Shown: positions 6,006 through 24,726, numbered from the stretch's first letter. The stretch is 32,000 nucleotides of DNA from Geotalea daltonii FRC-32 (GCF_000022265.1 NC_011979.1:2640001-2672000); one strand, 5' to 3'. The notes: generated from the sequence alone by a model not told the origin. Made by a program: numbers and translations.

Positions 6006-6082
<77 letters not shown>

Positions 6083-7775: not shown

Positions 7776-8602
7776 AGCCGTCCCTCCTGGAGCATCTGCT
7801 CATAAATGGCAGGAGTGCGCTGCAGAGGTGTCACGGGCCAGAAAGCAGGGAGAATAACCTTCTTCTCGGACTCAACGGATACACCCTGCGGAAGCGGCAG
7901 CAGAACTTTGAGCTCGGTCTCCATCCGGTCACAGGGGCGCTCGTTGGTTTCACCGTGGATACGGCAATTGGCTACCTCGTCGAGCCAGCGTCGCACTTCG
8001 ATATTGGCGGTGGCAACGTCGAGGACCAGACCAGCCTGCTTCAGCCGCGAGACTAAAGGGTAATGGAAGCTGTACCGCAGGTAACGATTGAAACGCTCTA
8101 CCTTTCCCTTGGTCTTGGCGCGGTACGGCTTGCAGAGCCTGGGTAAGAACCCAAAACGCTTGGAGATGTCCCACAGTCCGGCATGAAAGCGGTGTTTACC
8201 GTTGCCGTAAGCGTTACGCTCCAGTACCACGGTCTTCATGTTGTCATAGAGCACTTCATACGCCGCCAAAGAATGAGAAAGCTGCCTCATGGCACTCGCG
8301 AAGGACATTGAAAGCTTGGCTGGTCGTATAGGCGACGAAGGTGTTACGACTGAAGCCGAGTGTGGCAACGAAAGGATATGGTGCGGCAAGGCGGCCTTCA
8401 CCCGCTCTTCCAGAAACGCCTTGAACGGGTCCAGTTTCGATGGTCGCTTAGGCCGCGTCTTATACCGTGGGTCTGCTCGCGAACGAAGATACTTTCTGAC
8501 GGTGTGTCGGGACAAACCGGTGATCCTGGTGATCTCCCGGATGCTTTTGTGTTGCTTGTCTCTTAGGATTCTGACTTCCATGCACTCTTCCTTTCCAGTC
8601 AT
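7772..8602 (-). pseudogene. istA: IS21-family transposase IstA with internal deletion
   Basis: 276 aa, compared with about 400-500 aa for intact IstA. The N-terminal HTH (IREITRITGLSRHTVRKYLR) is joined to the distal DDE region (LYDNMKTVV ... PYRAKTKGKVERFNRYL ... VANCRIHGETNERP). The first part of the catalytic core is missing. Confidence 0.7.
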
Positions 8603-8886
8603 GCCGACCCTCCAGGTCGGCTAGGATACAGGAAGTGTGGGTCAAATTTCAGTTTCCGAGGTGGGTTATTTTTACATTGCCGCTAACACTATCTACATTG
8701 TGTGCTTCGGATTCATGCATTAATCACGCTGGCCATGGGGTGGGTTTTCGGTTCCTTTTTTGATGCTGCAAGAATTCGTCAGGCCACCAAACTGACTTCA
8801 AACTGAGGCACAAGTCGAGAAAGAAATGTAACTTGGCGGGCGTATAGTGCAATATGATACTACACAGAGTAGCTTTGGCTCGTCCT

Positions 8887-9549
8887 TTACTCCAGATTAT
8901 TGGGTTCCAAATTAAAATGCCATTCCTCAAAGAAATCGCTCAAAAATTGTTCAATGACTGCATGCCTGGACCTCGCCAGCCTTTTACCTGTTTCTGTATC
9001 GAAATCGTCTTTAAGTAGCAACAGTTTCTCGTAATAATGATGAATAACAGAAGGACAATGGGCTCCTGATTCGTACGGCTTGTTTGAGAATGGCACTGTA
9101 GGGTTCCAAATGCATTCATCATACTTTCCACCATATACGAACGACCTGGCAACACCTATAGCACCCAATGCATCGATGTTATCAGCATCTCTGACTATTT
9201 GCGCCTCGAGCGAGAGCTTGGATCGCGCACCAGGAGAAAACGAGTATTGGCTTGTATATGAAATGATTTCTAATATTGTGTCATGATATTTTGGGTTAAC
9301 AGCTATCTGGCCTAAATGTTCTCTTACCGTTTTTTCAGCCTCTTTATGAGATACCTTGGTTGCTTTCAAGCCCTCAAGATGTCGATCGATATCATGTAGA
9401 TAACAAGAAGCGACTATAACCTCCAAATTCCCACCTTCATAATGCGAGATATAACGGGCGATCCTCTCAACCCGCTCTAAATGAAAAAAATCGTGAGCAG
9501 AAGACTCGCCTTGGTAAAAGTCTTTGACATAATCCTTAATATCTTTCAT
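8887..9549 (-). CDS. HD-domain metal-dependent phosphohydrolase (YedJ/YpgQ-like)
   Basis: 220-aa ORF. The HD signature is FFHLERVERIA ... SCYLHDIDR ... VRDADNIDALG. RBS GGGGGAT lies upstream. It is the last gene of the AT-rich operon. Confidence 0.75.
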   Translation of the reverse strand: MKDIKDYVKDFYQGESSAHDFFHLERVERIARYISHYEGGNLEVIVASCYLHDIDRHLEGLKATKVSHKEAEKTVREHLGQIAVNPKYHDTILEIISYTSQYSFSPGARSKLSLEAQIVRDADNIDALGAIGVARSFVYGGKYDECIWNPTVPFSNKPYESGAHCPSVIHHYYEKLLLLKDDFDTETGKRLARSRHAVIEQFLSDFFEEWHFNLEPNNLE

Positions 9550-9576
9550 TTATCCCCCAAACTAGCCGGGTGTGCA

Positions 9577-10458
9577 CTAGTTTTCAAAAACACAGCCAAC
9601 ACCGGTATGAGCCATAAACCACGCGAGATGCGATAAATAAGCACCTTCCTTGATAATGACTGAATCATTATTTCCCATGGATGAAATATGATCAAACAAT
9701 GGATTACTAATCAACTTGGTAGCACACCCTTGAGAATGCGGGCTGACCATAAATGGCTTCTCTAATCTTCCCCCTGACAAACCTTGATAGGCCAATTTGT
9801 CAATGTCTTTATACTCTAGAAAATACATCCTTCCAGCTTGAAAGCCCACTTCGTAAAGGCAATCATGGTCAGGGTCAATATTTTCGAGGACTCTTAAACT
9901 GTCCAATGACGGACATTTACTTGAGCTAGCAGGATATTCCATCCATTGAGCACCATCCCACCTAACGCAGACTGGCTGGCGGCCGAAATCTTCGCTAATT
10001 AAATCACCATTTGAATCTAATAGGAATCTATTTTTGAAAAATCCTTTCCTAAACAAGGCATCCGGCGCACCTTCCACGATCTCAAGAAGAATATGCCTGT
10101 CTTTGACAAGTATTCCTCCAGACCAATCAAACTCCAATAGTGGTTGGACTGTCATGTCATAATCATGAATTCCAAGGTCCTCTGCTTCGGCAATAAGAAT
10201 GTGAATGGTTTCTTCAATATCCTGAGTGGAGGTTAACCTTTTCAGGCAATGTGGATAAACTGAATCTGAAAAATTAGCTCTAACATACAACCATTGTGGT
10301 GCCCATTGGCTAACCAATTGGACCGCGGTGGGGACTTCAGCTTTTTTATGAAACAAAACCGTATTAGGAATCCTCAAATTGCTGCCATCCAAGGCTATAA
10401 GACTCCTGACTTTATCCGTAACTACCTCAAAATTGTTTAGCCTGAATAACCCAGTCAT
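9577..10458 (-). CDS. Small PEP-utilising-enzyme-like protein (ATP-grasp-like core plus phosphohistidine swivel-like C-terminus)
   Basis: 293-aa ORF. TVQPLLEFDWSGGILVKDRHILLEIVEGAPDALFRKG resembles the PpsA/PPDK nucleotide-binding domain. The C-terminal VIIKEGAYLSHLAWFMAHTGVGCVF resembles the mobile His-domain motif (GG-x-T-SH-aAI-ARE-GIP). The assignment is by eye only. Confidence 0.4.
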   Translation of the reverse strand: MTGLFRLNNFEVVTDKVRSLIALDGSNLRIPNTVLFHKKAEVPTAVQLVSQWAPQWLYVRANFSDSVYPHCLKRLTSTQDIEETIHILIAEAEDLGIHDYDMTVQPLLEFDWSGGILVKDRHILLEIVEGAPDALFRKGFFKNRFLLDSNGDLISEDFGRQPVCVRWDGAQWMEYPASSSKCPSLDSLRVLENIDPDHDCLYEVGFQAGRMYFLEYKDIDKLAYQGLSGGRLEKPFMVSPHSQGCATKLISNPLFDHISSMGNNDSVIIKEGAYLSHLAWFMAHTGVGCVFEN

Positions 10459-10558
10459 TTCGTACCCTATAAAAAAATGGAATTATAAGACCACTGGCGA
10501 CTTGACCCCAAACCATCAAACCTATGGTACTGTGGCTTATGTCGAGTTTCAGAATTTC

Positions 10559-10822
10559 TTATTCAGCTTCGGCTTGAGCAGAAAAAGAGGGCGTAGTTTC
10601 GTCTCTGTTTTTCCACTTAAAAAACCCATATAAAGCTTGCACTGAATACACAGTAAACAGGAATACAGAAGCATAGATTCCCTGATAATAATAGAAAAAA
10701 ACCCAAAAAACGTTTATCACCACCCATATTAAATATCCGGTTCGTCTTTTATTAATAACAAGTTGGCCACCAAGTAAACTTCCAGCCACAAGCAACCAAG
10801 TTAAAGCACCATTTGCATTCAA
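10559..10822 (-). CDS. 87-aa three-helix membrane protein, PnuC (nicotinamide riboside transporter)-like single repeat
   Basis: Three hydrophobic segments. The pattern LVINKRRTGYLIWVVINVFWVFFYYYQGIYASVFLFTVYSVQALYGFFKW resembles the PnuC/NMN-transporter family consensus, which ends in YG-x2-W. It uses a TTG start with GAGGGGGA upstream. Confidence 0.4.
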   Translation of the reverse strand: MNANGALTWLLVAGSLLGGQLVINKRRTGYLIWVVINVFWVFFYYYQGIYASVFLFTVYSVQALYGFFKWKNRDETTPSFSAQAEAE

Positions 10823-10882
10823 AACGTTCCCCCTCGTTCCACCTACCCTGAGTTATTAGATGTTCAAATAAAATGACTCAAT

Positions 10883-11788
10883 TCAACTAAAAGCTTGCAA
10901 AATAACATCTTGAGCGGACGCACCCTCTTTAGGGCAGCAACAATTCGTAGCGGAATGGAGTATTTTTACGTAACCTTCTAAGATATTAAGCCTTGAGCCG
11001 TTGTCCATGACACAATCTACCGACTTATTGTTTCTGAATTCCTCAAAACTACTGGTGTTTGCAACAAACCCCTCATTTACTAGATTTCCATTGAAATTTG
11101 AAGGAAACAAACCATTAAACTCACTAAGGGTCAAAAATTTATGATTGTCCTTATGCACATGAACGGATCGGACTTTTAAACCTTTGTTACTTAAACTTTT
11201 AATTCTTTCAATATATTCCGGTACCCCACCACATTCGTATGTATCAAGTAAGACAGAAGCACCATGCCCTACCATTAACTTTTCGTAAAGTTCTCCAACA
11301 TAACGCCTATGCCTGGAACTGAGCCAGTTATGGTAGGATAGTCTTATCTCCTCAACTTCTAGATTATTCCCAGCGGCAAGATAGGCGAGCTTTTGTTTGT
11401 AATCTGAAAGTTCGGCCTCCTCATTAACACGGAGATCTCCTACTGGCGCATGCACAATGTAGTCAGTGAATCCTAATGTGGCGCAAAAAGAAAAAAATTG
11501 CTGCAACAATTTAAAGCCAAGAGGCTTTGACCAGTCATAACTATAACCGCCAGGTTGGTGTACTCTCACCTCTGATGGTGACAGACCATAATCATGTAGG
11601 TACTCCTTGAACCTCAATATCTCACCTTGCAGCGTTTTTAAATCGTCAGTAAAAAAAGACTGGCCAGCAATTACTGGAAGTTGGGTTAATAAGGCAACCT
11701 CAATTCCAATATTCAGTCCAATTAACCCCTGAATGTAACCCCTATCAGCAAAATCGTTGACAGTTACAGTCGTATACATAATACCCAT
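10883..11788 (-). CDS. Xylose-isomerase-like TIM-barrel protein (sugar-phosphate isomerase/epimerase family)
   Basis: Track ORF 10883..11806 has a TTG start. The ATG at 11788 has GGAAGGA upstream. Family-like strand motifs are DYIVHAP, NNLEVEEI, VLLDTYECGG and VRSVHVHKDNH. Confidence 0.45.
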   Translation of the reverse strand: MGIMYTTVTVNDFADRGYIQGLIGLNIGIEVALLTQLPVIAGQSFFTDDLKTLQGEILRFKEYLHDYGLSPSEVRVHQPGGYSYDWSKPLGFKLLQQFFSFCATLGFTDYIVHAPVGDLRVNEEAELSDYKQKLAYLAAGNNLEVEEIRLSYHNWLSSRHRRYVGELYEKLMVGHGASVLLDTYECGGVPEYIERIKSLSNKGLKVRSVHVHKDNHKFLTLSEFNGLFPSNFNGNLVNEGFVANTSSFEEFRNNKSVDCVMDNGSRLNILEGYVKILHSATNCCCPKEGASAQDVILQAFS

Positions 11789-11889
11789 TGAATTAATCCT
11801 TCCCAACCCGTGCCCTTACAAAATGAATACGGAACAGGTCTTAGTCGGCCCAAAAGCTTATCCCAACGCCCTAGATTTTTACCTGCTAA

Positions 11890-13161
11890 CTAAACCTTAA
11901 GTAGGCGCAAATCGTTTTTGATAATGTATCTGAACCATGCCCCTGCAAAGGCCGAGGTTATTATCGCAATCAAGATGAGCGAAGCTGAAAAAGAGCTACT
12001 GACTATCCCCAAGTCAAGCGCTACAGTCGCCAAAACAATGAGTGGCCCACCTTTAGTACTCATCGCAATCCCTAAATTGACACTAGAAAACCAATCTACT
12101 CTCAACATCCTAGTTGCAACTAAGCACCCAGCCATCTGAAAAAAAGTCATATACAAAAGGAACCAACCAAGAAAGAGAGGATCGAAATCCCTGATAAGGT
12201 TCAGCTTTAACCCGACTATGGCGAAATAGAGTGGAACAAAGAAAGCAAGAGAAAATTCCCGGATATGCTTTTTAACATTTATAAATTCGGGCTCTTTAGC
12301 CATCCCAACTACGATACCGGCGAGGAGTGCGCCAAATACCAAGTTAACGCCTAACATACTAGCTATTGCCACAAGAAACAGGCACACCGCCATGACATAC
12401 CCAACAATTGATGACCTGGCAACTACATTCCATTTCGAACCATTCAAGAACATTATTGCTCTTGGTATGATCTTTAAGAAAACTATAAAAAACGCTATCG
12501 TGATGACTAATTTGAGGACTATTTCTGATAAATTGATGGTACGTGCAGCTACTAAATCCCCAGCAATAGCTAAAGCGATCCACACTACTAAATCATGTAT
12601 TGTTGCAGCGGCGAGAACAACATTCGCAAACGGTGTACTTACAATATTCAGTTCGATAAATATTTTAGAAATAACAGGGATAGAAGTGACCGCAGTTGCA
12701 ATTGCTATAATCAATTGCAATGCTAACAGGCTGTGTTTGTCACCGACGTAAGGCGTGAGGTCAAAACAAATCGGCAAAAACCATCCGGCAATGAATGGTA
12801 TGATTGTAGAGCCAATAGTGAGTCCAAAAACAAGTTTATTGTTTTTCTGGTTTAAATAGTTCTGTATTTCAAATCCAGAAATAAACATTAATAAAATCAA
12901 GCCAAACCAGTAGACAATGGAAATTAGCTTACCCTCTGCTACAAATGCATTAAAAACCCAATTCTGCAGATCCGGCAGAAAATGACCAAATACCGTTGGC
13001 CCTAATAAGAATCCACCAAATATTTCACCAATAACACTAGGCATCCTCAATAAAGTAAAAAAGTAGCCACAAATGTGAGCAAAGGTCAACAGCAGGAAGA
13101 TTGCCATGAAAAACCGCGTCAACTCCAGGTCTGTCAAATAGATTGTGTCAGAAACCGTCAC
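11890..13161 (-). CDS. Cation:proton antiporter, CPA2/Na_H_exchanger family, without a KTN domain
   Basis: 423 aa with about 12 predicted hydrophobic helices. The N-terminal signature LLRMPSVIGEIFGGFLLGPTVFG is typical of KefB/NapA-type antiporters. Confidence 0.75.
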   Translation of the reverse strand: MTVSDTIYLTDLELTRFFMAIFLLLTFAHICGYFFTLLRMPSVIGEIFGGFLLGPTVFGHFLPDLQNWVFNAFVAEGKLISIVYWFGLILLMFISGFEIQNYLNQKNNKLVFGLTIGSTIIPFIAGWFLPICFDLTPYVGDKHSLLALQLIIAIATAVTSIPVISKIFIELNIVSTPFANVVLAAATIHDLVVWIALAIAGDLVAARTINLSEIVLKLVITIAFFIVFLKIIPRAIMFLNGSKWNVVARSSIVGYVMAVCLFLVAIASMLGVNLVFGALLAGIVVGMAKEPEFINVKKHIREFSLAFFVPLYFAIVGLKLNLIRDFDPLFLGWFLLYMTFFQMAGCLVATRMLRVDWFSSVNLGIAMSTKGGPLIVLATVALDLGIVSSSFSASLILIAIITSAFAGAWFRYIIKNDLRLLKV

Positions 13162-13195
13162 ACCAACCCCTGCTCTGCTAAGATAACTCTAGTAA

Positions 13196-14101
13196 TCATG
13201 AATAAATTGCCCTGTTTGATACGCACTTATCCCAAAGATGATTGATTTCGTGGAAAGCCTCACGTATATGATCTGCTGTCATTTGTTTGGTATCACCAAG
13301 CGATACGTAATCTCCTTTACTGGAATACGCTAAAGTTAAATCAGGCTTTACAAATACATATGATTCATCCCTTTCTGCAGCTGTCGCATGTGATATGTGT
13401 ACATCGGGAAAATATTCTTTTAAGTTTTGCATCAGTCCTTCGAAATCATCTTGAGGGATACTCAGGCTATCTATATAACTGTAATTATCGTTATAATCAT
13501 TAAAATTGCTAAATTGATAGAATCTCCAGACATCAGGCGTATACAGCGGAAACTTCTCAAACATGATCTTGCCAAGTAATGCGACATGATCGATATTTTT
13601 TTTGGTTACAACAGTACCAAGTTTAACTTTAGCTGTTAGATCATCGTATTCTTTGTAATATCTGAGGAACTCTACTACTTGTGTAAAGTGTTGCGCACCT
13701 AATTCTCCCGTGATTATTTTATCTAACTCTGCTGATGGTGCGTCGAGAGATATACTAATCCATGACAAATATGGGGAAATTTCTTTCCATATTTGTTTTA
13801 ACAGCAGGCCATTAGTAGACAGGTACACGGCGAAACCAATTTTTTTTGCATATTGGGCAATGTCAGCAACATCTTCTCGGACCGTCGGTTCTCCGCCAGT
13901 CAAAACCACTCGCCTCAACCCTGCGATGTATAGCTTGTCTAAAACGTGCTTTATTTCAGCCAAAGAAGCCTCACTGCCCTCTTTTGGGGCATAGCACTTA
14001 TTACAGTTGAGATTACAACGATAAGTAACCATAATATCCACCGGGATTTGACTCAAATCTGTTGTTTTCACATTACCTCCCTCATTAGGCACAAAGGACA
14101 T
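13196..14101 (-). CDS. Radical SAM enzyme, viperin-like (candidate prokaryotic viperin / NTP dehydratase)
   Basis: 301 aa. The cluster motif is YRCNLNCNKCY (CX3CX2C), followed by VVLTGGEPTV, YLSTNGLLL and ISISLDAP. The distal VWRFYQF ... SIPQDDFEGLMQ ... DESYVFV lines up with animal viperin RWKVFQC ... IGDEEFERFLE ... KDSYLIL (from memory). An alternative GTG start at 14071 has the strong RBS GAGGGAGG. Confidence 0.6.
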   Translation of the reverse strand: MSFVPNEGGNVKTTDLSQIPVDIMVTYRCNLNCNKCYAPKEGSEASLAEIKHVLDKLYIAGLRRVVLTGGEPTVREDVADIAQYAKKIGFAVYLSTNGLLLKQIWKEISPYLSWISISLDAPSAELDKIITGELGAQHFTQVVEFLRYYKEYDDLTAKVKLGTVVTKKNIDHVALLGKIMFEKFPLYTPDVWRFYQFSNFNDYNDNYSYIDSLSIPQDDFEGLMQNLKEYFPDVHISHATAAERDESYVFVKPDLTLAYSSKGDYVSLGDTKQMTADHIREAFHEINHLWDKCVSNRAIYS

Positions 14102-14104
14102 CCC

Positions 14105-14935
14105 TTAATTATCAAATATGCCCAATACCTGAGCTGCACGTTGATATTTGATTTTCTTTGTAATACTAACGCCGAACCTATTACCCAACGATTGTGATAG
14201 GACCTCTATCAACTTGACCACGCGAGGGTCCTTTGCAACCTCCGGGCTTATTCGAGGGTAAATAGCCAGCTCTACTTCTGAAACAGGGCAGCTTTTACGC
14301 TTATCCTCTGGTAACCGTAGATTGGACACATGAGCTCTATCTATGCTACATCGCAATGCGTCTTTCTTATCGAGCCAGACAAAAAACGTGAACCTGTAAT
14401 CATCAAGACGTATAGAAGGAATAAGATCAGTACCACGAATACCAAGCTTTTGCTCTAAGTGTAGTCCAGGCTGATCAATGTCTTTTCGTTTTAATAAAGA
14501 CTTGACGATACTCACCGCCTCGATTGAGTCAGGTCCATTTTGTATTGTTTTTTTCTCATCACCCGCAAACACATATCTGTGGTCCCGCCTGACGCTGTGA
14601 CTATCTGATGCTTCTTTAAAGGCACAAAAAGCATGCGTTATTTTATTGCACGAAGTACGCAGCAATGCGCCAGTGTTCAATATCTTGTAATCCTCTGTAT
14701 CGTAATATATTGCGGTGTTTAACGGTGGAGTCACCCGCGCATTTTCCTTTTCAACAATTTTTGCGCCATGTACCAATCCATCAATACAATCTTTCATCTC
14801 ATCTAACCACTGGTAGTACTGTTCGTTCGTTACATTGTCCATCTCGACTTTAACCGCAAGCTGATTAAATATCACCAGCTTCCCAGGTTCGACGGTATAA
14901 ACGGCCTCTTCACTTGGCATCCTTATGCAATCCAT
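14105..14935 (-). CDS. CYTH-like (triphosphate tunnel metalloenzyme) domain protein
   Basis: Track ORF 14105..14950 has a TTG start. The ATG at 14935 has GGAGG 6 nt upstream. The strand pattern resembles CYTH: YYDTEDYKILNTGALLRTS, AFKEA, RRDHRYVF, DDYRFTFFV, SIDRAHV, VSEVELAI, and a C-terminal KIKYQRA. The N-terminal EXEXK motif is degenerate (VKVEMD). Confidence 0.45.
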   Translation of the reverse strand: MDCIRMPSEEAVYTVEPGKLVIFNQLAVKVEMDNVTNEQYYQWLDEMKDCIDGLVHGAKIVEKENARVTPPLNTAIYYDTEDYKILNTGALLRTSCNKITHAFCAFKEASDSHSVRRDHRYVFAGDEKKTIQNGPDSIEAVSIVKSLLKRKDIDQPGLHLEQKLGIRGTDLIPSIRLDDYRFTFFVWLDKKDALRCSIDRAHVSNLRLPEDKRKSCPVSEVELAIYPRISPEVAKDPRVVKLIEVLSQSLGNRFGVSITKKIKYQRAAQVLGIFDN

Positions 14936-14981
14936 GGTTAATCCTCCCAAATATAAGAAATTGATTAATCTCCTCTTTGCC

Positions 14982-15932
14982 CTAAAGGACGGGACATAGC
15001 GGATCGATGCTCGGTTGGTGCTTCAATGCGACAGCAACGCACCCTTTACCGCATCCGGGAACACCACAATTGCTGCATAAAGGGTGATTAAAAAGCTTCT
15101 CCAATTCCGTCGGAAATCCAAATACGTCTTTTACACTGTCGGAATCATATTCTGAGGTGAAGCTAGAAATCCAAGAGCACGGCGTTATCTTGCCATCGGA
15201 CAATATTCCGATAATGTTTTTGCCGGCTGGGCATTTTTGCAACTTCCCTTTTTTAGGTCTAATCAAGTCGATGTACTTTTTGTCTTGCAGTACGTCAGAA
15301 TTTACAATCTGACTTATTTCCTCCTGTGAAACTACATATTCAGAAAGTTCCGCATTATCGTCGACTTCAATTATGTCATTGAGCTTGGCACTTAAATCAT
15401 GAGTTTTTAAGAACTTAAATAATTCGGGAAGTTCATGAATATTCTTCTTCGTTACTGTGTACTGTAAGGAGATTTTTGCCTTGTAAGGCAATAACTCCAG
15501 TATGTTATTAATCACCTGGTCGAAGGCTCCAACCCTACCAGTAAACTCATCGTGTGTTTGCGCAGAAAAACCACACAATCCAATTCTTATTTTCACTGAT
15601 TCACAACACAGTAAATCTAAGAAATGTTTATCTAACAAAAGACCATTCGTATTGATTGATACTGTCATACCTTTTGCTTGAGCATAATTTACAACCTGAA
15701 ATATCCCATCGAATAGTAACGGCTCACCACCTGTTAGTATTATACGTTTAATCCCATGAACAGCCAAATCGTCGATTAGACCCTCGGCTTCCTTCAAAGT
15801 TATTTGTGCATTTTCTCGACGATGTTTGTTTAGACAGTGCTTGCAGCTTAATTGACATTTCCCTGTAATTTCCCAGTTCACCTTGATGACATCTTCATTT
15901 GGCCAGAAACAACATGCTCTTATGTATTCCAT
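14982..15932 (-). CDS. Radical SAM enzyme with C-terminal SPASM/twitch domain
   Basis: 316 aa. The cluster motif is GKCQLSCKHCLN, followed by RIILTGGEPLL and SINTNGLLL. The C-terminal auxiliary-cluster cysteines are KCPAGKNIIGILSDGKITPCSW and CSNCGVPGCGKGCVAVA ... DPLCP. RBS AGGAGA lies upstream. Confidence 0.8.
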   Translation of the reverse strand: MEYIRACCFWPNEDVIKVNWEITGKCQLSCKHCLNKHRRENAQITLKEAEGLIDDLAVHGIKRIILTGGEPLLFDGIFQVVNYAQAKGMTVSINTNGLLLDKHFLDLLCCESVKIRIGLCGFSAQTHDEFTGRVGAFDQVINNILELLPYKAKISLQYTVTKKNIHELPELFKFLKTHDLSAKLNDIIEVDDNAELSEYVVSQEEISQIVNSDVLQDKKYIDLIRPKKGKLQKCPAGKNIIGILSDGKITPCSWISSFTSEYDSDSVKDVFGFPTELEKLFNHPLCSNCGVPGCGKGCVAVALKHQPSIDPLCPVL

Positions 15933-16049
15933 TATTTTCTCCTATTGATACTTCGAAATGAAAGCTGAAGCTTATGGCTAAACCTTTTCAGCGGCTACAA
16001 CCTTACTTTCATTACGACAGCAATAAGGCTGTATCTACGCAAACCATTC

Positions 16050-16442
16050 TTAATCAGCGATGGTGTCACAACTGCCAAAACTCCAACCTTCTATAGGTTT
16101 GTAAACCATCGCTTTATCCTTGAGCAGGCCAGAATGCTTTTTTACGAACAGCTCGATTTCTTCGCGCAATGAAATAAGCTCAATATAGAGATTTAAAGAA
16201 GAGTTATGGTATTCCGACAATTTCCCTGTTTCTATCTTTCCATTAGGAATGTAGCCGCTGTGCATTAGATAAGCGTACGCACTAAAAATCCCGTCCTGCT
16301 TGGCTGCTTCAATAATATCTTCGTACAGAGACCTACCGAAAAAACGCTGTAGGTTGGTAGTCGCTTTGACTTTATCTCTTGCAGTCATATAAATACGCAA
16401 TTGTCCATATTCTTTTATGACTACACTTTCGTCATCCGACAC
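16050..16442 (-). CDS. DUF190 (PII-like fold) protein
   Basis: 130 aa with a GTG start and GGGAGG 6 nt upstream. The pattern LRIYMTARDKV ... SLYEDIIEAAKQDGIFSAYAYLMHSGY ... LNLYIELISLREEIELFVKK matches the DUF190 family layout. Confidence 0.55.
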   Translation of the reverse strand: MSDDESVVIKEYGQLRIYMTARDKVKATTNLQRFFGRSLYEDIIEAAKQDGIFSAYAYLMHSGYIPNGKIETGKLSEYHNSSLNLYIELISLREEIELFVKKHSGLLKDKAMVYKPIEGWSFGSCDTIAD

Positions 16443-16508
16443 TTACAACCTCCCATAGTCCCATGGTTTAACATTGCCTTACTACACTAGTAACAAATTC
16501 ACCTTTAC

Positions 16509-17057
16509 CTAAACAGTTTCCAAAATACCATTGAGGCAATGTTCCTTTTCAATCACTGCTTCACTACAATTAACAAATTCATTGAATGCTTTGTTAAGTA
16601 ATTTTTTGTAGTTTGGGAAAATATTCAGAGCCTGTATCTCTGCTTTGCTAAACCATCCTATATTTTTATACTCTCGGTAATCATGCCGGATTTGATCAGT
16701 ATTTGAACTGCATATAAAAACAAAATCTATGTGATAATGTAAATCATTTGGTATATTTATCAGTTCGCATAAAACAGCGTATGGGTTGTGCAGTACAACG
16801 GCTTCATTTGTTCCAAGATTTACATCACAATTACTAACAATGGTTATTTTTAAACCTGTTTCTTCCATTATTTCTCTACTAACAGCTTCGTCAGGGGATT
16901 CGTTTACCTCTATATGCCCACCTGGCCCGAGCCAGGTGCCTAATTTTTTGTGTTCTAGTAATAGCACTTTCTCATTGTGGAAAATGATTGCCGACGCAAC
17001 GAAATGCTTAATGACCGAACCTTCTCTTAAGGTTGCTACCTCACAGTCTACAGACAT
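16509..17057 (-). CDS. NUDIX hydrolase
   Basis: 182 aa with a complete Nudix box, GGHIEVNESPDEAVSREIMEETGL (GX5EX7REUXEEXGU). It is the first gene of the AT-rich operon. Confidence 0.85.
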   Translation of the reverse strand: MSVDCEVATLREGSVIKHFVASAIIFHNEKVLLLEHKKLGTWLGPGGHIEVNESPDEAVSREIMEETGLKITIVSNCDVNLGTNEAVVLHNPYAVLCELINIPNDLHYHIDFVFICSSNTDQIRHDYREYKNIGWFSKAEIQALNIFPNYKKLLNKAFNEFVNCSEAVIEKEHCLNGILETV

Positions 17058-17237
17058 TGAAAACCCCTATTCTAGCTGACTATTTAGCTTGTCAGTCTTC
17101 CCAGATGGACTGCATTGCACTCATTTGCGTCGCGTTTTTACGTTCTAACAATAAGCATCCAGACAACAGCTGAACAATCCCTACCACCTCGTTTAAACCC
17201 TGTGCGGTTTGAAATACAATTTTTGGTCATATTAATG

Positions 17238-17257
17238 AACTGTCCTAAAGGACAGGT
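17238..17257. promoter_or_regulatory. lux-box-like 20-bp palindrome (AACTGTCCTAAAGGACAGGT)
   Basis: It has the CTG-N10-CAG core and 8 of 10 symmetric half-site positions. It lies in the 482-bp divergent region between the NUDIX operon start (17057) and the luxI-like start (17540). Confidence 0.5.
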
Positions 17258-17539
17258 GCTTCGTGCTTAGCTTCTTTAAGCCGCTAAAAGAGGAGTCGTT
17301 ATTGATTATTTTTTGAACTTGCTGGCGGGTATTTACTGAAACATTTCAAAGCAGTTTGGGATTACTCGGAGTCATTAATTGACGTAACCAGTGTAAATTG
17401 AATGCAATTCCATCTTGATTTTTGGAGGAACCACATCGGTACAGACCTGATTTTGGCAAGGAATGTTGCCGCAGCTGTACTTAAAGCCAGGTGATTTTCT
17501 TTCAATTTTCTCCTCTTATGTGTTTCAAGGAGGAGTAAT

Positions 17540-18277
17540 ATGATAGCGATTAGCAAACATGTTGCAACACCCGCTGCTAATGGCCTTAAGAGTGATGTCT
17601 TTATAAGGGAGGGTGGTCTTTATGTCACAAACATTGTTGCAAAAGAAGATATATTTAAAGCACATTCATTGAGGTATAGAGTTTTTTGTGATGAATTGGG
17701 ATGGGCTCCCCAAAATTTTTGTAAGCTTGATATAGATAATTATGATGATGGGGCTGTCTTTTTTGGCGTTTTTGATGTGAATAATGATTTAAAAGCCTTT
17801 TTACGGATTGTGACCTCAGATCATCCATTCATGATAGAGAACGAGTTTCCGTTTTTGGTAAAGGCGGGATCAACTATAAGCAAACGAGACGATGTCGTTG
17901 AGGTATCAAGACTATGTGTTGATGCCGATGCAAGATCAGAGACGTTTTCTGGTAATTTCGGCGTGCATACTGCCTCTCTTCTTTTATATAAGGGTGTTTA
18001 TCATTGGTGTTTGAAGAATCGAATAAACTACCTTTATCTTGTTGTTGATTATAAGGTGTTCAGATTGCTAAATGTGAAAGGATTTCCCTGCAGATTGATA
18101 GGAGATCCAAAAGTTATGCCCGATGGTGTAGTTGCGGTTGCAGCAATGCTGAATTGGAGGGAATTTGAAGAGTTGAACCTTGTTGGAACTAAAAATTTGA
18201 AATCATGGTTCAGTCAATATCAATTACCCCCGCCGACAGTGCAATTGCCACAGCGTGAGTTCTGCTCACAGCATTAA
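17540..18277 (+). CDS. LuxI-family acyl-homoserine-lactone synthase-like protein (GNAT fold)
   Basis: 245 aa with RBS AAGGAGG upstream. Family-invariant positions are present with the expected spacing: LRYRVFCDELGW, DIDNYD, AFLRIV and VEVSRL. The related N-acyl amino acid synthase family cannot be excluded. Confidence 0.65.
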   Translation: MIAISKHVATPAANGLKSDVFIREGGLYVTNIVAKEDIFKAHSLRYRVFCDELGWAPQNFCKLDIDNYDDGAVFFGVFDVNNDLKAFLRIVTSDHPFMIENEFPFLVKAGSTISKRDDVVEVSRLCVDADARSETFSGNFGVHTASLLLYKGVYHWCLKNRINYLYLVVDYKVFRLLNVKGFPCRLIGDPKVMPDGVVAVAAMLNWREFEELNLVGTKNLKSWFSQYQLPPPTVQLPQREFCSQH

Positions 18278-18956
18278 GTTTAACCATGATATTTTCAACA
18301 TGAAATTTTACAGTTCTTACACTGATAGCGAGAATTACTGAGATATCCCAAGAACTCTTTCCCTTTTTCACCCAATTAAGCACTTCTATTTCTCTTTTTG
18401 AAAGTTCGAAATTTACTGGAGCTTTTGTTTTTGATAAATAAGTCGTAAATGCAGTATGTAAATGTGGGGTCAAATTTTCAATTATGAATTTCTCACGTGG
18501 GTGGTTTTCCAGTTTACCAGCAACTGAAAACAGGCTTCCTTCTGTCGATTTCAAGTTTCTAACTCCACAGGCAATACCATTATATAAGTTAAAATCTCTT
18601 GCCGCTGAGATGAATTCTTTAGGTGGATTCCATTTCTTGTAGGTGTCTTCCCAAAACTGTAGCTCAAAATTACTAAAGTTTTCTTTAGCAATCGGGTCGA
18701 CTTGACAAAAATTTTTTCTTTTATAAGTGATTAGCCATTCTTCTGGATAAGATATATTCATTACATCATATGTCTGTATTAGACCGTTAGTACCTATTTG
18801 GGCTATACCAAATACTGCGTTATCAATCGCTACAAGACTAGACAAACTGTCTACAATATTCTTAATACCTGTCTTATTCTTACAGGTCACACATTCGTGA
18901 ATAAGCTCTAAAAGAAAAACTGCATCACGCTTTGAAATACAATCAGTATTTTCCAT
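18210..18956 (-). CDS. LuxR-family transcription regulator with autoinducer-binding domain
   Basis: 248 aa. The N-terminal segment EEWLITYKRKNFCQVDPIAKENFSNFELQFWED reproduces the W-x3-Y-x8-DP-x13-W spacing of the AHL-receptor invariants (TraR W57, Y61, D70, P71, W85). The C-terminal HTH is LSKREIEVLNWVKKGKSSWDISVILAISVRTVKFHVENIMVKL. Confidence 0.8.
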   Translation of the reverse strand: MENTDCISKRDAVFLLELIHECVTCKNKTGIKNIVDSLSSLVAIDNAVFGIAQIGTNGLIQTYDVMNISYPEEWLITYKRKNFCQVDPIAKENFSNFELQFWEDTYKKWNPPKEFISAARDFNLYNGIACGVRNLKSTEGSLFSVAGKLENHPREKFIIENLTPHLHTAFTTYLSKTKAPVNFELSKREIEVLNWVKKGKSSWDISVILAISVRTVKFHVENIMVKLNAVSRTHAVAIALSAGVIDID

Positions 18957-19276
18957 ATTTTCTCTATCTGTGTTATGTCCAATTGTTAGCCGCCATAGCT
19001 CCTTTAACCAATCATGTACGGTATCTGGCGTCTTGAATTATAAGCTTCATCTGCTGTTTTTATTCTTGTAGTTCTTACAAATTATTTCAGCGCTTGGCGG
19101 TGCCCAAATGGATTCAATTAAAACAGCAGACCTCCTTTTTAAGGATTCCTGAGTTGCTCAGCAGTTGCTTTCCAGGAGGGCAAAATGTTTGCTTAGCCCC
19201 ATCGAGTATCCTGGAATAAGTGGCATCGTTTTCACAAGGGGACGAGGTAATTCGACATATTCCCGAAATTGAATTT

Positions 19277-19345
19277 GTGTGCCTTGTATGGCACACGGCG
19301 TAAGTCCTGTGTAAAAAAAATTACACGTGTAAAATTTCTTTACAC
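19277..19345. promoter_or_regulatory. Cluster of three palindromes (candidate operators) upstream of the luxR-like gene
   Basis: GTGTGCC-N6-GGCACAC (19277-19296), GTGTAA-A6-TTACAC (19309-19326) and GTGTAAA-N5-TTTACAC (19327-19345). The last two share a perfect 12-bp palindrome, TTACACGTGTAA (19321-19332). Confidence 0.35.
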
Positions 19346-19653
19346 CTATGTACCTTAACTCACTACATAAACTGAAACGGAATATATTTTTAGACAACCT
19401 AATAATCAAGATAATTAAAAATATTTTTATTTAATTAATGCAAGAAAGTTGGCAAAAAACGAAAACCGCCACATATCACCTAGTAGATTCTACTCGTAAG
19501 TGCATTCGAGTTAGGGGCCCCAGACTCGCGGCCAGTGTACCTGGCTAGGCATAATCGGAACACCTCTGGAGCTCCCATAGATGGTCCTTCTGATCCCTCT
19601 CCAGATGGCAGTGCTGGGGAGGGATCACAGTCCCCAGAATAGCGTTCAGCTCG

Positions 19654-23390: not shown

Positions 23391-23438
23391 CTGCTGGTCA
23401 CCGGAGCTGCTTCAATACTAATCACCAGGAGAACAAGA

Positions 23439-24671: not shown

Positions 24672-24726
24672 GCCGAGTCGCGAACTACAGCGGCGTTCGT
24701 TTAAGCGCCCGTAGCCGGAGCACTCC

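What the first reader, a model, noticed from the sequence alone, without database searches (positions are those of the whole stretch)
17540..18956. Complete LuxI/LuxR-type quorum-sensing pair, convergent with a 68-bp 3' overlap, inside the island of a Geobacter-like genome
Seen: the synthase-like protein keeps the LuxI-family invariant positions with correct spacing. These are R-x3-F-x5-W in LRYRVFCDELGW, the acidic D-x-D-x2-D cluster, R in FLRIV, and E-x-S-R in VEVSRL. The regulator keeps the receptor invariants with the exact W-x3-Y-x8-DP-x13-W spacing, plus a LuxR HTH.

The two genes converge and overlap by 68 bp (18210-18277). Their mRNAs would therefore be antisense at the 3' ends, which could allow transcriptional interference.

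Established: AHL circuits are mainly found in Alpha-, Beta- and Gammaproteobacteria.

Inference: finding one on a low-GC island in this lineage implies horizontal acquisition. It may control the neighbouring ten-gene operon. An alternative is that the pair belongs to the related N-acyl amino acid synthase / EpsA-like regulator families associated with exosortase systems.
Basis: partly seen in the sequence, partly recalled or inferred. Interest (0 to 1): 0.7.

Follow-up and report, generated by a model that had tools for sequence, protein, structure and literature searches.

The report
CviI/CviR-type quorum-sensing pair in Geobacter
This is an intact signal-maker and signal-receptor gene pair of the well-known acyl-homoserine-lactone quorum-sensing type, carried on foreign low-GC DNA in Geotalea (Geobacter) daltonii, and it probably switches on itself and a neighbouring ten-gene operon; it is a new example of a known system, not a new kind.

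Summary
The window holds a 245-aa LuxI-family synthase gene (17540-18277, +) and a 248-aa LuxR-family receptor gene (18210-18956, -).

The window is Geotalea daltonii FRC-32, where both genes are already annotated. The closest characterised relative is CviI/CviR of Chromobacterium:
- CviR is by far the best solved-structure match.
- The CviR residues I know as its AHL contacts are conserved.
- The published CviR operator CTGNCCNNNNGGNCAG occurs exactly at 17240-17255.
- A second, weaker box sits in the conserved luxI-promoter position (17473-17493).

The 3' overlap is not peculiar to this genome. All 31 non-duplicate related loci that hold both genes are convergent. All but one overlap, and 18 overlap by exactly 80 bp, including C. 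violaceum and G. uraniireducens.

The exosortase alternative fails its thresholds and its gene context. Horizontal acquisition is supported by GC3 of 0.28-0.33 against 0.61-0.82 in the flanks, an IS21 remnant and an adjacent tRNA-Met.

Control of the neighbouring operon, which includes a viperin-like radical SAM enzyme, is plausible because "luxI box plus cargo box" recurs in relatives. It is unproven.

Verdict: new member of a known kind, moderate interest.

The parts
17540..18277 (+). luxI/cviI-type acyl-homoserine-lactone synthase gene (245 aa)
   Evidence: ORF. Pfam Autoind_synth 67.6 bits against cut-off 24. PDB sequence hits are LasI, TofI, EsaI and RpaI. AlphaFold model has pLDDT 85, and the 11 best Foldseek rows are all AHL synthase entries. 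It is 30% identical to C. violaceum CviI at E 1e-30 and 46% identical to the G. uraniireducens homologue.
18210..18956 (-). luxR/cviR-type AHL receptor-transcription factor gene (248 aa)
   Evidence: ORF. Pfam Autoind_bind 87.8 bits and GerE 71.4 bits. The best solved-structure match is CviR 3qp6, E 5.8e-38 over residues 14-241; the next best is SdiA at 1e-17. The window residues aligned with CviR Y80, W84, Y88, D97, W111 and S155 are identical.
18210..18277 (.). 68-bp convergent 3' overlap. It encodes the last 22 residues of each protein on opposite strands.
   Evidence: The homologous overlap is 80 bp in 18 related loci, including C. violaceum and G. uraniireducens. Other loci have 116, 77, 74, 59, 49, 46, 40 or 17 bp.
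17473..17493 (+). Box 2: lux/CviR-type operator of the luxI promoter (AGCTGTACTTAAAGCCAGGTG)
   Evidence: It has 2 mismatches to the clade consensus ACCTGT-N8-ACAGGTG. It is collinear with the luxI-promoter boxes of L003, L033 and G. uraniireducens.
17514..17519 (+). -10-like hexamer TCTTAT of the putative luxI promoter; GGAGG follows at 17531-17535 and the ATG at 17540
   Evidence: Read. It lies 21 nt after the 20-mer box. The TCTTATGT stretch is identical in L033. Inferred only; no transcription-start data.
17237..17258 (.). Box 1: near-perfect palindrome GAACTGTCCTAAAGGACAGGTG. Its core 17240-17255 (CTGTCCTAAAGGACAG) matches the CviR operator CTGNCCNNNNGGNCAG exactly. It is the candidate operator for the divergent operon.
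   Evidence: Unique in the window. It has 1 mismatch to the clade consensus. Boxes 1 and 2 are the only sites with 2 or fewer mismatches in 32 kb: 4 strand hits against 0.57 expected, with 1 of 100 shuffles reaching 4. The operator consensus comes from Stauff & Bassler as quoted in PMC12114271.
17211..17216 (-). -10-like hexamer TATTTC on the minus strand, 21 nt after box 1; candidate promoter of the NUDIX-to-HD operon
   Evidence: Read. The spacing is the same as box 2 to TCTTAT. It is a weak match (3 of 6 to TATAAT) and is inferred only.
8887..17057 (-). Ten-gene candidate cargo operon. In order: NUDIX, DUF190, radical SAM/SPASM-like, unknown 281 aa, viperin-like radical SAM, CPA2 cation/proton antiporter, unknown 307 aa, 87-aa PnuC-like fragment, unknown 293 aa, HD phosphohydrolase.
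   Evidence: ORFs. Family matches. Gaps between genes are 3-117 bp and GC3 is 0.30-0.42, the same as the luxI/luxR pair.
8650..19450 (.). Low-GC segment carrying the operon and the quorum-sensing pair; approximate borders
   Evidence: Composition profile. GC3 of its genes is 0.28-0.42 against 0.61-0.82 in the flanking genes.
6006..6082 (+). tRNA-Met at the left edge of the atypical region
   Evidence: ARAGORN and Rfam. No direct repeat of 12 nt or more from the tRNA region (5951-6400) was found at 7101-22000.
7772..8602 (-). IS21-family transposase remnant between the tRNA and the low-GC segment
   Evidence: NCBIfam transpos_IS21 scores 156.6 bits against cut-off 160, in two stretches. Pfam gives weak HTH_7 and rve_3 matches.

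Best explanation
This is a functional CviI/CviR-type acyl-homoserine-lactone quorum-sensing cassette. It arrived in Geotalea daltonii on a low-GC mobile segment together with a ten-gene cargo operon.

Proposed mechanism:
1. The synthase makes an acyl-HSL from S-adenosylmethionine and an activated acyl group.
2. At high cell density the signal binds the receptor, which dimerises and binds two 20-22 bp palindromes in the 482-bp divergent intergenic region.
3. Box 2 (17473-17493) sits where a lux-type activator site sits, about 42 bp upstream of the inferred start. It activates the synthase gene, giving positive feedback.
4. Box 1 (17237-17258), an exact CviR-consensus site, activates the divergent NUDIX-to-HD operon.
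5. The convergent 3' overlap makes the two mRNAs antisense over 68 nt. This is a lineage-wide feature that could damp co-expression.

What is shown: family membership, conserved ligand-contact and catalytic residues, the operator sequences and their conservation in relatives, the conserved overlap, and the foreign composition. What is inferred: the signal's identity, DNA binding, which promoter each box serves, and any effect of the overlap.
For: **Family membership**
- Pfam matches are far above cut-off.
- The PDB sequence hits for the synthase are all AHL synthases.
- The AlphaFold model has pLDDT 85. The 11 best Foldseek rows are all AHL synthase entries, E 2e-13 to 2e-8. FeeM, an N-acyl amino acid synthase, follows at 6e-8.
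- The receptor matches CviR full-length at E 5.8e-38, 20 orders of magnitude better than any other solved receptor. The CviR positions Y80, W84, Y88, D97, W111 and S155 are identical in the window protein.
- The synthase is 30% identical to CviI at E 1e-30.

**Operators**
- Window box 1 equals the published CviR operator CTGNCCNNNNGGNCAG.
- A palindrome ACCTGT-N8-ACAGGT lies upstream of the luxI homologue in at least 16 related loci. In 443 kb of related loci, 22 sites have one mismatch or fewer, against 0.6 in shuffles, and all lie within about 3 kb of a pair.
- The window box 2 promoter is collinear with those of L003, L033 and G. uraniireducens.
- A second box next to adjacent genes recurs. 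It precedes radical SAM/SPASM genes in L033, an isochorismatase-to-HypF-like gene set in L035, the same MBL-fold/PPTase/acyltransferase genes in both G. uraniireducens and L003, and a divergent sensor kinase in L016, L018 and L020.

**Experimental support in relatives**
- C. violaceum CviI/CviR is an established AHL system.
- The metagenomic AubI/AubR pair had as its closest database relatives the G. uraniireducens LuxI and this very FRC-32 LuxR. It makes and senses C12-HSL.

**Foreign origin**
- GC3 is 0.28-0.33 for the pair against 0.61-0.82 in the flanks.
- An IS21 remnant and a tRNA-Met lie at the left edge.
- The G. uraniireducens pair is flanked by IS110, IS1595 and IS91 elements and an integrase. 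The L035 pair lies among RepB, ParB and resolvase genes.
Against: - No signal chemistry, DNA binding or transcript data exist for this organism. I found no paper on AHLs in G. daltonii.
- No NCBIfam equivalog threshold is reached (TraI 79.8 against 292, SdiA 84.7 against 350), so the exact product cannot be assigned by homology.
- Box 2 is degenerate, with 2 mismatches.
- The -10-like hexamer after box 1 is weak (TATTTC), and box 1 lies 181 bp from the NUDIX start codon.
- The cargo operon is not found next to the pair in any other locus, so co-regulation rests on box position alone.
- The sequence after box 1 faintly resembles a luxI leader, so box 1 could be a relic duplicate.
- The synthase here ends 4 codons earlier than in the 80-bp loci.
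Confidence: 0.72

Rival explanations
1. The pair belongs to the PEP-CTERM/exosortase-associated N-acyl amino acid synthase and EpsA regulator families. It would make an N-acyl amino acid linked to exopolysaccharide or protein sorting, not a diffusible AHL signal.
For: TIGR03694 (exosort_acyl) gives a sub-threshold match of 54.9 bits. All 31 clade members match it at E of 0.001 or better, with a best E of 4e-22. One homologue carries that name in JGI (P0059). EpsA gives a 75.5-bit partial match. FeeM is a significant structural neighbour.
Against: - All scores are below curated cut-offs: 54.9 against 111.95, 75.5 against 170, and FeeM Pfam 15.2 against 27.
- The TraI AHL-synthase models score higher (79.8 and 73.4 bits).
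- The EpsA match covers only residues 118-238, whereas the N-terminal domain is a clear autoinducer-binding domain with CviR's ligand-pocket positions conserved.
- AHL synthases outrank FeeM in fold search by about 5 orders of magnitude.
- No exosortase or PEP-CTERM family turned up among the window ORFs scanned.
- The operator and gene topology match CviI/CviR.
Confidence: 0.03
2. The cassette is a silent or decaying passenger. It was inherited with the island but is no longer a working circuit in G. daltonii, for example because of a weakened luxI operator, no expression under anaerobic growth, or a signal that is never made.
For: Box 2 has two mismatches. The synthase tail is 4 codons shorter than in most relatives. 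The island carries a transposase remnant and about 1.9 kb without a convincing gene next to luxR. Published reviews mention AHL genes only for G. uraniireducens, and D. soudanensis was described as the first AHL producer among metal reducers.
Against: Both ORFs are intact. All family-invariant residues are kept and the ribosome-binding site is good. The right half-site variant GCCAG of box 2 is shared with G. uraniireducens, so it is a lineage variant rather than decay. Box 1 is an exact consensus site. Identical copies of the locus occur in other sequencing runs.
Confidence: 0.12
3. The circuit works as proposed, but the signal is non-canonical, for example an aryl- or branched-acyl-HSL made from a CoA thioester rather than a fatty acyl-ACP. 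This would fit an organism that degrades aromatics through CoA esters.
For: CoA-dependent synthases RpaI and BjaI are among the best structural neighbours, E 1.2e-12 and 3e-12. RpaI is also a PDB sequence hit. The island abuts a bbs (benzylsuccinate beta-oxidation) operon rich in aromatic CoA esters.
Against: The closest characterised relatives use straight-chain acyl-HSLs: CviI, at 100 bits pairwise, and AubI with C12-HSL. TofI and LasI, which I know as acyl-ACP-dependent, score as well as RpaI and BjaI. Adjacency to bbs is probably an accident of insertion, because the compositions differ sharply.
Confidence: 0.1
4. Box 1 is not an operator for the divergent operon. It would be either a second upstream site acting on luxI or a relic of a duplicated luxI promoter, and the ten-gene operon would be regulated independently.
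For: Box 1 has the same orientation as box 2 (ending in CAGGTG towards luxI). It is followed by a GAGGAG-N8-TTG stretch that resembles the luxI leader. The operon is not linked to the pair anywhere else.
Against: A 'luxI box plus a second box facing neighbouring genes' recurs in at least seven related loci. This includes the same cargo in two Geobacteraceae genomes and a divergent arrangement in L016, L018 and L020. On the plus strand no -10-like hexamer follows box 1 at the conserved spacing (AGCCGC), whereas on the minus strand TATTTC does.
Confidence: 0.3

Closest known systems
CviI/CviR (CsuI/CsuR) of Chromobacterium violaceum and C. subtsugae
   Same: - The genes are convergent and overlap at their 3' ends. 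I measured 80 bp in C. violaceum, and the literature reports 80 bp in C. subtsugae.
- The receptor matches CviR over residues 14-241 at E 5.8e-38, with the ligand-pocket positions identical.
- The operator is CTGNCCNNNNGGNCAG, present in the synthase promoter region.
- The synthase is 30% identical to CviI, including the HPFM-E-EF and WRE motifs.
   Different: - The overlap is 68 bp, not 80 bp.
- The synthase is 245 aa against 217 aa, with a longer N-terminus and a different tail.
- Sequence identity is only 30% for the synthase.
- The host is a strictly anaerobic Desulfuromonadales species rather than a betaproteobacterium.
- The target genes are adjacent (a divergent operon), whereas in Chromobacterium the pair lies away from its regulon.
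- The signal is unknown.
Putative LuxI/LuxR pair of Geotalea (Geobacter) uraniireducens Rf4, and the wider uncharacterised clade in Geobacteraceae, Nitrospirota, Thermodesulfobacteriota and Methylacidiphilaceae
   Same: They belong to the same clade: 46% identity for the synthase and 49% for the receptor. They share the convergent overlap, the luxI-promoter box including the GCCAG half-site, and a second box next to cargo genes. Both lie in mobile-element contexts.
   Different: The overlap is 80 bp there. The cargo differs: MBL-fold, PPTase and acyltransferase genes there, against the NUDIX/radical-SAM operon here. The G. uraniireducens pair has been noted in reviews and in a survey of luxR-linked gene clusters. 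The G. daltonii pair has been cited only as a database homologue.
AubI/AubR, a metagenome-derived C12-HSL system (Nasuno et al. 2012)
   Same: When it was described, its nearest database relatives were the G. uraniireducens LuxI, the Geobacter sp. FRC-32 LuxR (the window protein) and CviI/CviR. It is experimentally shown to produce and respond to acyl-HSLs.
   Different: It is only 33-42% similar by the published figures. I did not have its sequence, so its topology and operator were not compared here.
Convergent overlapping luxR/luxI topology ('R2' of Gelencser et al. 2012)
   Same: It describes convergently transcribed luxR and luxI overlapping by 2-79 bp in 53 proteobacterial genomes. Transcriptional interference or antisense pairing was proposed as a brake.
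   Different: That survey covered proteobacterial genomes. Here the same feature is traced, at a nearly fixed 80 bp, through Nitrospirota, Thermodesulfobacteriota and Geobacteraceae, and at 40 bp in Verrucomicrobia.

Membership tests
LuxI-type acyl-homoserine-lactone synthase (Pfam PF00765) | Profile match above the curated gathering score | tested here: met
   67.6 bits against 24, residues 35-203 on profile positions 7-173 of 183.
LuxI-type acyl-homoserine-lactone synthase (Pfam PF00765) | Conserved N-terminal and core residues (LuxI R25, F29, W35, E44, D46, D49, R70, E101, S103, R104; numbering from my own knowledge) | tested here: met
   R45, F49, W55, D64 (Glu in at least 90% of homologues), D66, D69, R89, E121, S123 and R124 are present. 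They align with the LasI RxxxFxxxxxW, ExDxxD, R and ExSR motifs.
LuxI-type acyl-homoserine-lactone synthase (Pfam PF00765) | AHL-synthase fold (GNAT-like alpha/beta core) | tested here: met
   AlphaFold model pLDDT 85.2, pTM 0.80. The 11 best Foldseek rows are entries of TofI, RpaI, BjaI, LasI, MesI and EsaI, with TM-score on the target of 0.64-0.83.
LuxI-type acyl-homoserine-lactone synthase (Pfam PF00765) | Makes an acyl-HSL from SAM and acyl-ACP or acyl-CoA | not testable with these tools
   Needs heterologous expression with LC-MS/MS or biosensors. The relatives CviI and AubI do make acyl-HSLs.
Named AHL-synthase or regulator equivalogs in NCBIfam (TraI, SdiA, TraR, PA1136 family) | Score at or above the curated equivalog or subfamily cut-off | tested here: not met
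   TraI 79.8 against 292 and 73.4 against 250; SdiA 84.7 against 350; TraR 42.7 against 250; PA1136 family 70.8 against 215.6. The pair is therefore not an orthologue of those named proteins.
LuxR-type AHL receptor | N-terminal autoinducer-binding domain plus C-terminal GerE/LuxR helix-turn-helix, both above cut-off | tested here: met
   PF03472 87.8 bits against 23 (residues 30-169); PF00196 71.4 bits against 23.5 (residues 185-239).
LuxR-type AHL receptor | Invariant ligand-pocket residues (TraR W57, Y61, D70, P71, W85; CviR Y80, W84, Y88, D97, W111, S155; roles and numbering from my own knowledge) | tested here: met
   Y70, W74, Y78, D87, P88, W102 and S144 align with the CviR and SdiA residues.
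LuxR-type AHL receptor | Binds a 16-20 bp dyad-symmetric lux-type box in target promoters | tested here: inconclusive
   Two candidate boxes lie in the divergent intergenic region. They are the only sites with 2 or fewer mismatches in 32 kb, and homologous boxes are conserved in relatives. Binding itself cannot be tested here.
CviI/CviR-type subgroup | Receptor most similar to CviR among characterised receptors | tested here: met
   CviR 134 bits, E 5.8e-38, against 67.6 bits or less for SdiA, RhlR, LasR, QscR and TraR.
CviI/CviR-type subgroup | Convergent synthase and receptor genes with 3' overlap (80 bp in Chromobacterium) | tested here: met
   Convergent, with a 68-bp overlap here. The overlap is 80 bp in C. 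violaceum L031 and in 17 other loci of the clade.
CviI/CviR-type subgroup | Operator CTGNCCNNNNGGNCAG | tested here: met
   17240-17255 CTGTCCTAAAGGACAG is an exact match (consensus). Box 2 (CTGTACTTAAAGCCAG) departs at 2 of the 10 specified positions (read).
PEP-CTERM/exosortase-associated acyltransferase (TIGR03694) with EpsA regulator (TIGR03020) | Scores at or above the curated cut-offs | tested here: not met
   54.9 against 111.95 and 75.5 against 170. The EpsA match covers only residues 118-238.
PEP-CTERM/exosortase-associated acyltransferase (TIGR03694) with EpsA regulator (TIGR03020) | Neighbourhood containing exosortase or PEP-CTERM genes | tested here: not met
   No such family appeared in any ORF of the 32-kb window that I scanned.
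Prokaryotic viperin (pVip), for the cargo gene 13196-14101 | NCBIfam NF038283 at or above cut-off; CxxxCxxC radical SAM motif; viperin-like C-terminal part | tested here: inconclusive
   NF038283 scores 101.3 bits against 180, aligned nearly full length. PADLOC pVip scores 116 bits. The best long PDB match is viperin RSAD2, E 6e-10. The CNLNCNKC motif is present. The protein is viperin-like but below the family threshold.

The most novel reading that the evidence does not exclude
The cassette may be one instance of a mobile 'quorum-sensing pair plus swappable cargo' unit that has spread through anaerobic phyla (Geobacteraceae, Nitrospirota, Thermodesulfobacteriota, Verrucomicrobia). In this reading the conserved antisense 3' overlap is a selected, built-in brake on the autoinduction loop.

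In G. daltonii the cargo it gates would be a viperin-like nucleotide-modifying pathway: a viperin-like radical SAM enzyme, a second radical SAM enzyme, NUDIX and HD hydrolases, and a transporter. That would mean density-dependent production of a modified-nucleotide antiviral or antimetabolite.
Probability: 0.25. Interest if true: 0.65.

Novelty: new member of a known kind. Interest (0 to 1): 0.35.

Why it matters
AHL signalling has hardly been studied in the metal- and aromatic-respiring Geobacteraceae. Here there is a concrete, testable circuit in a cultivated, sequenced strain: one synthase, one receptor, two predicted operators and one adjacent candidate target operon.

The comparative result is the more general point. 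CviI/CviR-like pairs, with the same operator and the same 3' overlap, occur across several anaerobic phyla next to different cargo. This suggests that quorum-sensing control travels with accessory gene sets as a unit.

If the cargo here really is a viperin-like nucleotide-modifying pathway under density control, it would link quorum sensing to that kind of chemistry. None of this changes how LuxI/LuxR systems are understood to work.

Tried and rejected
- **Island att sites.** I looked for direct repeats of the tRNA-Met 3' end (12 nt or more, both strands). None was found between 7.1 and 22 kb, so the island borders rest on composition only.
- **Cargo operon next to homologous pairs.** tblastn of all ten proteins against the first 28 fetched loci found only unrelated radical SAM genes in L007 and L014. 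The gene calls of the six later loci show none of these genes either.
- **Operator upstream of luxR (18957-19500).** None with 2 or fewer mismatches.
- **Phage-borne relatives.** A scan of viral contigs with the synthase alignment found none.
- **The three unknown cargo proteins.** No match in Pfam at E up to 10, NCBIfam, PADLOC or PDB sequences.
- **Exosortase / EpsA reading.** Rejected on thresholds and gene context.
- **The 68-bp overlap as a peculiarity of this genome.** Rejected, because it is ancestral to the clade.
- **Selection on the overlap, tested as reduced synonymous change in luxR.** The effect is small: 0.53 in the overlap against 0.58-0.60 elsewhere. This is suggestive only.
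- **Literature.** I found no paper linking G. daltonii or FRC-32 to AHLs, other than a table entry citing its LuxR as a homologue.
Full report
**1. The observation**

The ORF list shows a 245-aa ORF at 17540-17540+737 (17540-18277, +) and a 248-aa ORF at 18210-18956 (-). They converge and share 18210-18277, which is 68 bp including both stop codons.

- Synthase: R45-x3-F49-x5-W55, D64-x-D66-x2-D69, R89, E121-x-S123-R124.
- Receptor: W74-x3-Y78-x8-D87-P88-x13-W102.

In an alignment of 31 homologues these synthase residues are invariant or nearly so. The synthase ATG is preceded by GGAGG at 17531-17535.

Pfam scores leave no room for chance:

| Model | Score (bits) | Cut-off (bits) |
|---|---|---|
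| Autoind_synth | 67.6 | 24 |
| Autoind_bind | 87.8 | 23 |
| GerE | 71.4 | 23.5 |

**2. Where the window comes from, and whether the pair is already known**

The synthase is 100% identical to a protein of Geotalea (formerly Geobacter) daltonii FRC-32. It is annotated there as "N-acylhomoserine lactone synthetase-related protein". The receptor is annotated as a LuxR-family regulator with an autoinducer-binding domain.

I found no paper on AHLs in G. daltonii. [quoted passage not shown] AubI/AubR makes and senses C12-HSL.

LuxI/LuxR homologues in G. uraniireducens are mentioned in reviews and in a survey of luxR-linked gene clusters. An unrelated LuxI in Desulfuromonas soudanensis yields AHL activity.

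**3. What the two proteins are**

*Synthase.*
- All five PDB sequence matches are AHL synthases: LasI, TofI, EsaI, RpaI and one further entry.
- An AlphaFold model built on the 31-sequence alignment is confident (pLDDT 85, pTM 0.80). The N-terminal 15 residues and the tail beyond about residue 226 have low confidence.
- The 11 best Foldseek rows are entries of TofI, RpaI, BjaI, LasI, MesI and EsaI, with E from 2e-13 to 2e-8. The N-acyl amino acid synthase FeeM comes next at 6e-8.

*Receptor.*
- CviR of Chromobacterium violaceum is the best solved relative by far: 134 bits, E 5.8e-38, over residues 14-241. SdiA, RhlR, LasR, QscR and TraR reach 32-68 bits.
- Counting along that alignment, CviR Y80, W84, Y88, D97, W111 and S155 align with identical residues in the window protein (Y70, W74, Y78, D87, W102, S144). 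I know these CviR positions as its AHL-contact residues.

*Direct comparison with Chromobacterium and G. uraniireducens.* I fetched the C. violaceum locus to compare the synthases.
- The window protein and CviI are 30% identical over 187 residues, E 1e-30. This is far better than any match to LasI-type enzymes.
- The G. uraniireducens homologues are 46% identical for the synthase and 49% for the receptor.

**4. The rival family**

The exosortase-associated acyltransferase model TIGR03694 scores 54.9 bits against a cut-off of 111.95. That is below the two TraI AHL-synthase models, at 79.8 and 73.4 bits.

EpsA scores 75.5 bits against 170 and matches only the C-terminal part of the receptor. FeeM Pfam scores 15.2 bits against 27. 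The same pattern holds for all 31 clade members.

No exosortase or PEP-CTERM family appears in any window ORF I scanned. This alternative is rejected.

No NCBIfam equivalog cut-off for a named AHL synthase or receptor is reached either. The pair is therefore a LuxI/LuxR family member of the CviI/CviR kind, not an orthologue of a named protein. Its signal cannot be read from homology.

**5. The overlap is a lineage trait**

I gathered three sets of related loci:
- a scan of one genome per species with the synthase alignment, which returned 26 loci;
- the G. uraniireducens and two Chromobacterium loci;
- two close metagenomic relatives.

The loci come from Geobacteraceae, Nitrospirota, Thermodesulfobacteriota (Smithella, Syntrophobacteraceae), unclassified "delta proteobacteria", one gammaproteobacterial MAG and Methylacidiphilaceae (Verrucomicrobia).

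In every locus that holds both genes, the receptor gene is convergent with the synthase gene. All but one overlap at the 3' ends:

| Overlap | Loci |
|---|---|
| 80 bp | 18 loci, including C. violaceum and G. uraniireducens |
| 77 bp | L014 |
| 116 bp | L011 |
| 74 bp | L033 |
| 59 bp | L035 |
| 46 and 49 bp | L021, L022 |
| 40 bp | 4 Verrucomicrobia loci |
| 17 bp | L017 |
| 68 bp | this window |
| none | L032, a second Chromobacterium pair type |

The 80-bp overlap of csuI/csuR is published. Convergent overlapping luxR/luxI genes, with overlaps of 2-79 bp, were catalogued in 53 proteobacterial genomes, and interference or antisense pairing was proposed.

I asked whether the overlap is merely passive.
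- With each receptor protein held fixed and its last 26 codons redrawn synonymously, the antisense frame stays open with probability 0.09-0.73 per sequence (median about 0.25). Yet it is open in all 15 non-redundant 80-bp loci.
- Tail identity is 0.36, against 0.23 ± 0.01 under this null.
- Synonymous differences in luxR are only slightly fewer inside the overlap (0.53) than outside it (0.58-0.60).

The null ignores shared ancestry. I read this as modest evidence that the synthase tail, and hence the overlap, is maintained. The tail is predicted to be disordered. In G. daltonii the synthase simply stops four codons earlier than in the 80-bp loci.

**6. Operators**

The 482-bp region between the synthase gene and the divergent NUDIX gene holds two palindromes.

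*Box 1* is 17237-17258, GAACTGTCCTAAAGGACAGGTG.
- It is unique in the window.
- Its core, CTGTCCTAAAGGACAG, is an exact match to the CviR operator CTGNCCNNNNGGNCAG reported by Stauff and Bassler (quoted).

*Box 2* is 17473-17493, AGCTGTACTTAAAGCCAGGTG.

These two are the only sites in 32 kb within two mismatches of the clade consensus ACCTGT-N8-ACAGGTG. That gives 4 strand hits against 0.57 expected, and 1 of 100 shuffles reached 4.

The consensus comes from the relatives.
- The palindrome lies upstream of the synthase gene in at least 16 loci.
- Over 443 kb of non-duplicate loci there are 22 sites with one mismatch or fewer, against 0.6 in shuffles. All lie within about 3 kb of a pair.

Box 2 is the positional orthologue of the luxI-promoter box. 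Its flanks align with those of L003, L033 and G. uraniireducens. The shared features are the left half CTGTACTT, the GCCAG right half-site also seen in G. uraniireducens, and the TCTTATGT stretch that is identical in L033.

The -10-like TCTTAT (17514-17519) starts 21 nt after the 20-mer. This puts the box centre about 42-43 bp upstream of the inferred start, which is the geometry of lux-type activation (inference; no transcription-start data).

**7. Does the pair control the neighbouring operon?**

*Evidence for.*
- On the minus strand, box 1 is followed at the same 21-nt spacing by TATTTC (17216-17211). On the plus strand the equivalent hexamer is AGCCGC. The NUDIX start codon is 181 bp from the box.
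- A second box facing neighbouring genes recurs in relatives:

| Locus | Second box (mismatches to 20-mer consensus) | Genes it faces |
|---|---|---|
| L033 | 0 | radical SAM/SPASM gene |
| L035 | 2 | isochorismatase, AIR-synthase-like, HypF-like, aminotransferase and permease gene set |
| G. uraniireducens (L029) | 0 | MBL-fold, PPTase and acyltransferase genes |
| L003 | 2 | the same cargo as G. uraniireducens |
| L016, L018 | 0 | divergent 1646-aa PAS/histidine-kinase gene (read in L018) |
| L020 | 1 | same position upstream of the luxI box as in L016 and L018 |

*Evidence against.*
- The G. daltonii cargo is not found next to any other pair.
- The -10-like element is weak.
- The sequence after box 1 faintly resembles a luxI leader, so a relic duplication cannot be excluded.

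I put control of the operon at roughly 0.55-0.6.

**8. The cargo and the island**

The ten minus-strand genes (8887-17057) have gaps of 3-117 bp and share the pair's composition: GC3 is 0.30-0.42, against 0.33 and 0.28 for the pair.

They encode, in order:
1. a NUDIX hydrolase;
2. a DUF190 protein;
3. a radical SAM enzyme with a weak SPASM-like match;
4. an unknown 281-aa protein;
5. a viperin-like radical SAM enzyme (NF038283 101 bits against cut-off 180, aligned nearly full length; PADLOC pVip 116 bits; best long PDB match viperin RSAD2);
6. a CPA2 antiporter;
7. an unknown 307-aa protein;
8. an 87-aa PnuC-like fragment;
9. an unknown 293-aa protein;
10. a YedJ-like HD phosphohydrolase.

This looks like nucleotide-modifying chemistry, but I could not assign a product.

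Flanking genes have GC3 of 0.61-0.82.
- To the left lie gdh, ispG, proS, pyrF, a SpoU methylase gene, tRNA-Met, a HigB/HigA-like pair and an IS21 remnant.
- To the right lies a bbs operon for benzylsuccinate beta-oxidation, with BbsA and BbsB above their equivalog cut-offs.
- No att-like repeat was found.

Foreign origin is well supported. The nearest relatives, however, are in other anaerobic lineages, not in classical Proteobacteria.

**9. Verdict**

The pair is an intact CviI/CviR-type AHL quorum-sensing cassette on horizontally acquired DNA. It is already annotated and belongs to a clade that has been noted in G. uraniireducens but not characterised. It is a new member of a known kind.

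What this analysis adds:
- the precise subtype;
- the two operators;
- the finding that the overlap and the "luxI box plus cargo box" layout are conserved across phyla;
- a candidate target operon of unusual content.

All functional steps remain inferences: signal production, DNA binding, promoter use and any effect of the overlap.

Noticed in passing
window 13196-14101 (-), within the operon 8887-17057: A viperin-like radical SAM protein. NCBIfam viperin_w_prok scores 101 bits (below the 180 cut-off) and aligns nearly full length; PADLOC pVip scores 116 bits; the best long PDB match is RSAD2/viperin. It sits with a second radical SAM enzyme, NUDIX and HD hydrolases, a CPA2 antiporter, a PnuC-like fragment and three proteins with no family match. 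This may be a modified-nucleotide pathway or a defence module.
   Followed up: partly
window 20864-31900 (+): The high-GC right flank is a bbs-type operon for benzylsuccinate beta-oxidation in anaerobic toluene degradation. It has two family III CoA-transferase subunits, an acyl-CoA dehydrogenase, an enoyl-CoA hydratase, ETF beta and alpha, an Fe-S/CCG oxidoreductase, BbsA (262 bits, cut-off 250), BbsB (818 bits, cut-off 750) and an SDR. The low-GC island is inserted between tRNA-Met and this operon.
   Followed up: partly
loci L003-L036 and window 18210-18277: The convergent 3' overlap of synthase and receptor genes is conserved at exactly 80 bp in 18 loci spanning Betaproteobacteria (C. violaceum), Geobacteraceae, Nitrospirota and Thermodesulfobacteriota, and at 40 bp in four Methylacidiphilaceae loci. 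The antisense frame stays open more often than synonymous resampling of luxR predicts.
   Followed up: yes
L029 14149-14168; L003 11942-11961; L033 6094-6113; L035 11644-11663; L016 7871; L018 9442; L020 9753: Besides the box at the synthase promoter, most longer loci have a second CviR-type box facing neighbouring genes. G. uraniireducens and the Geobacteraceae MAG L003 share the same boxed cargo (MBL-fold protein, phosphopantetheinyl transferase, acyltransferase/NMO genes). This suggests quorum-sensing-controlled specialised metabolism in Geobacteraceae.
   Followed up: partly
window 6377-7049 (-) and 7617-8602 (-): A HigB (Gp49)/HigA (HTH_3)-like toxin-antitoxin pair lies next to tRNA-Met. 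Beside it is a disrupted IS21-family transposase (156.6 bits against cut-off 160, in two stretches), followed by a short ORF that looks to me like the N-terminus of IstB. These are mobile-element debris at the island's left edge.
   Followed up: partly
window 18957-20860: About 1.9 kb between luxR and the bbs operon has no convincing gene; two small ORFs there gave no Pfam match. GC rises stepwise. It contains a tandem repeat of about 3 copies of a 17-21 nt unit (ACGGGAGTTCAGGGGACACCA, 20044-20102) and a sigma-70-like promoter on the minus strand at 19409-19381, about 425 nt upstream of luxR.
   Followed up: no
L035 / L036 (JGI metagenome contigs): A 61%-identical synthase/receptor pair lies among RepB, ParB, resolvase and Bro-N genes, which is a plasmid- or phage-plasmid-like context. 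This fits the cassette being mobile. No relative was found in the viral contig collection.
   Followed up: partly
L032 (Chromobacterium, GCA_033095845.1) 4001-5540: A second type of Chromobacterium pair has a receptor 76% identical to CviR and a 242-aa synthase. The genes are convergent but do not overlap (10-bp gap), so the overlap has been lost at least once within the genus.
   Followed up: no
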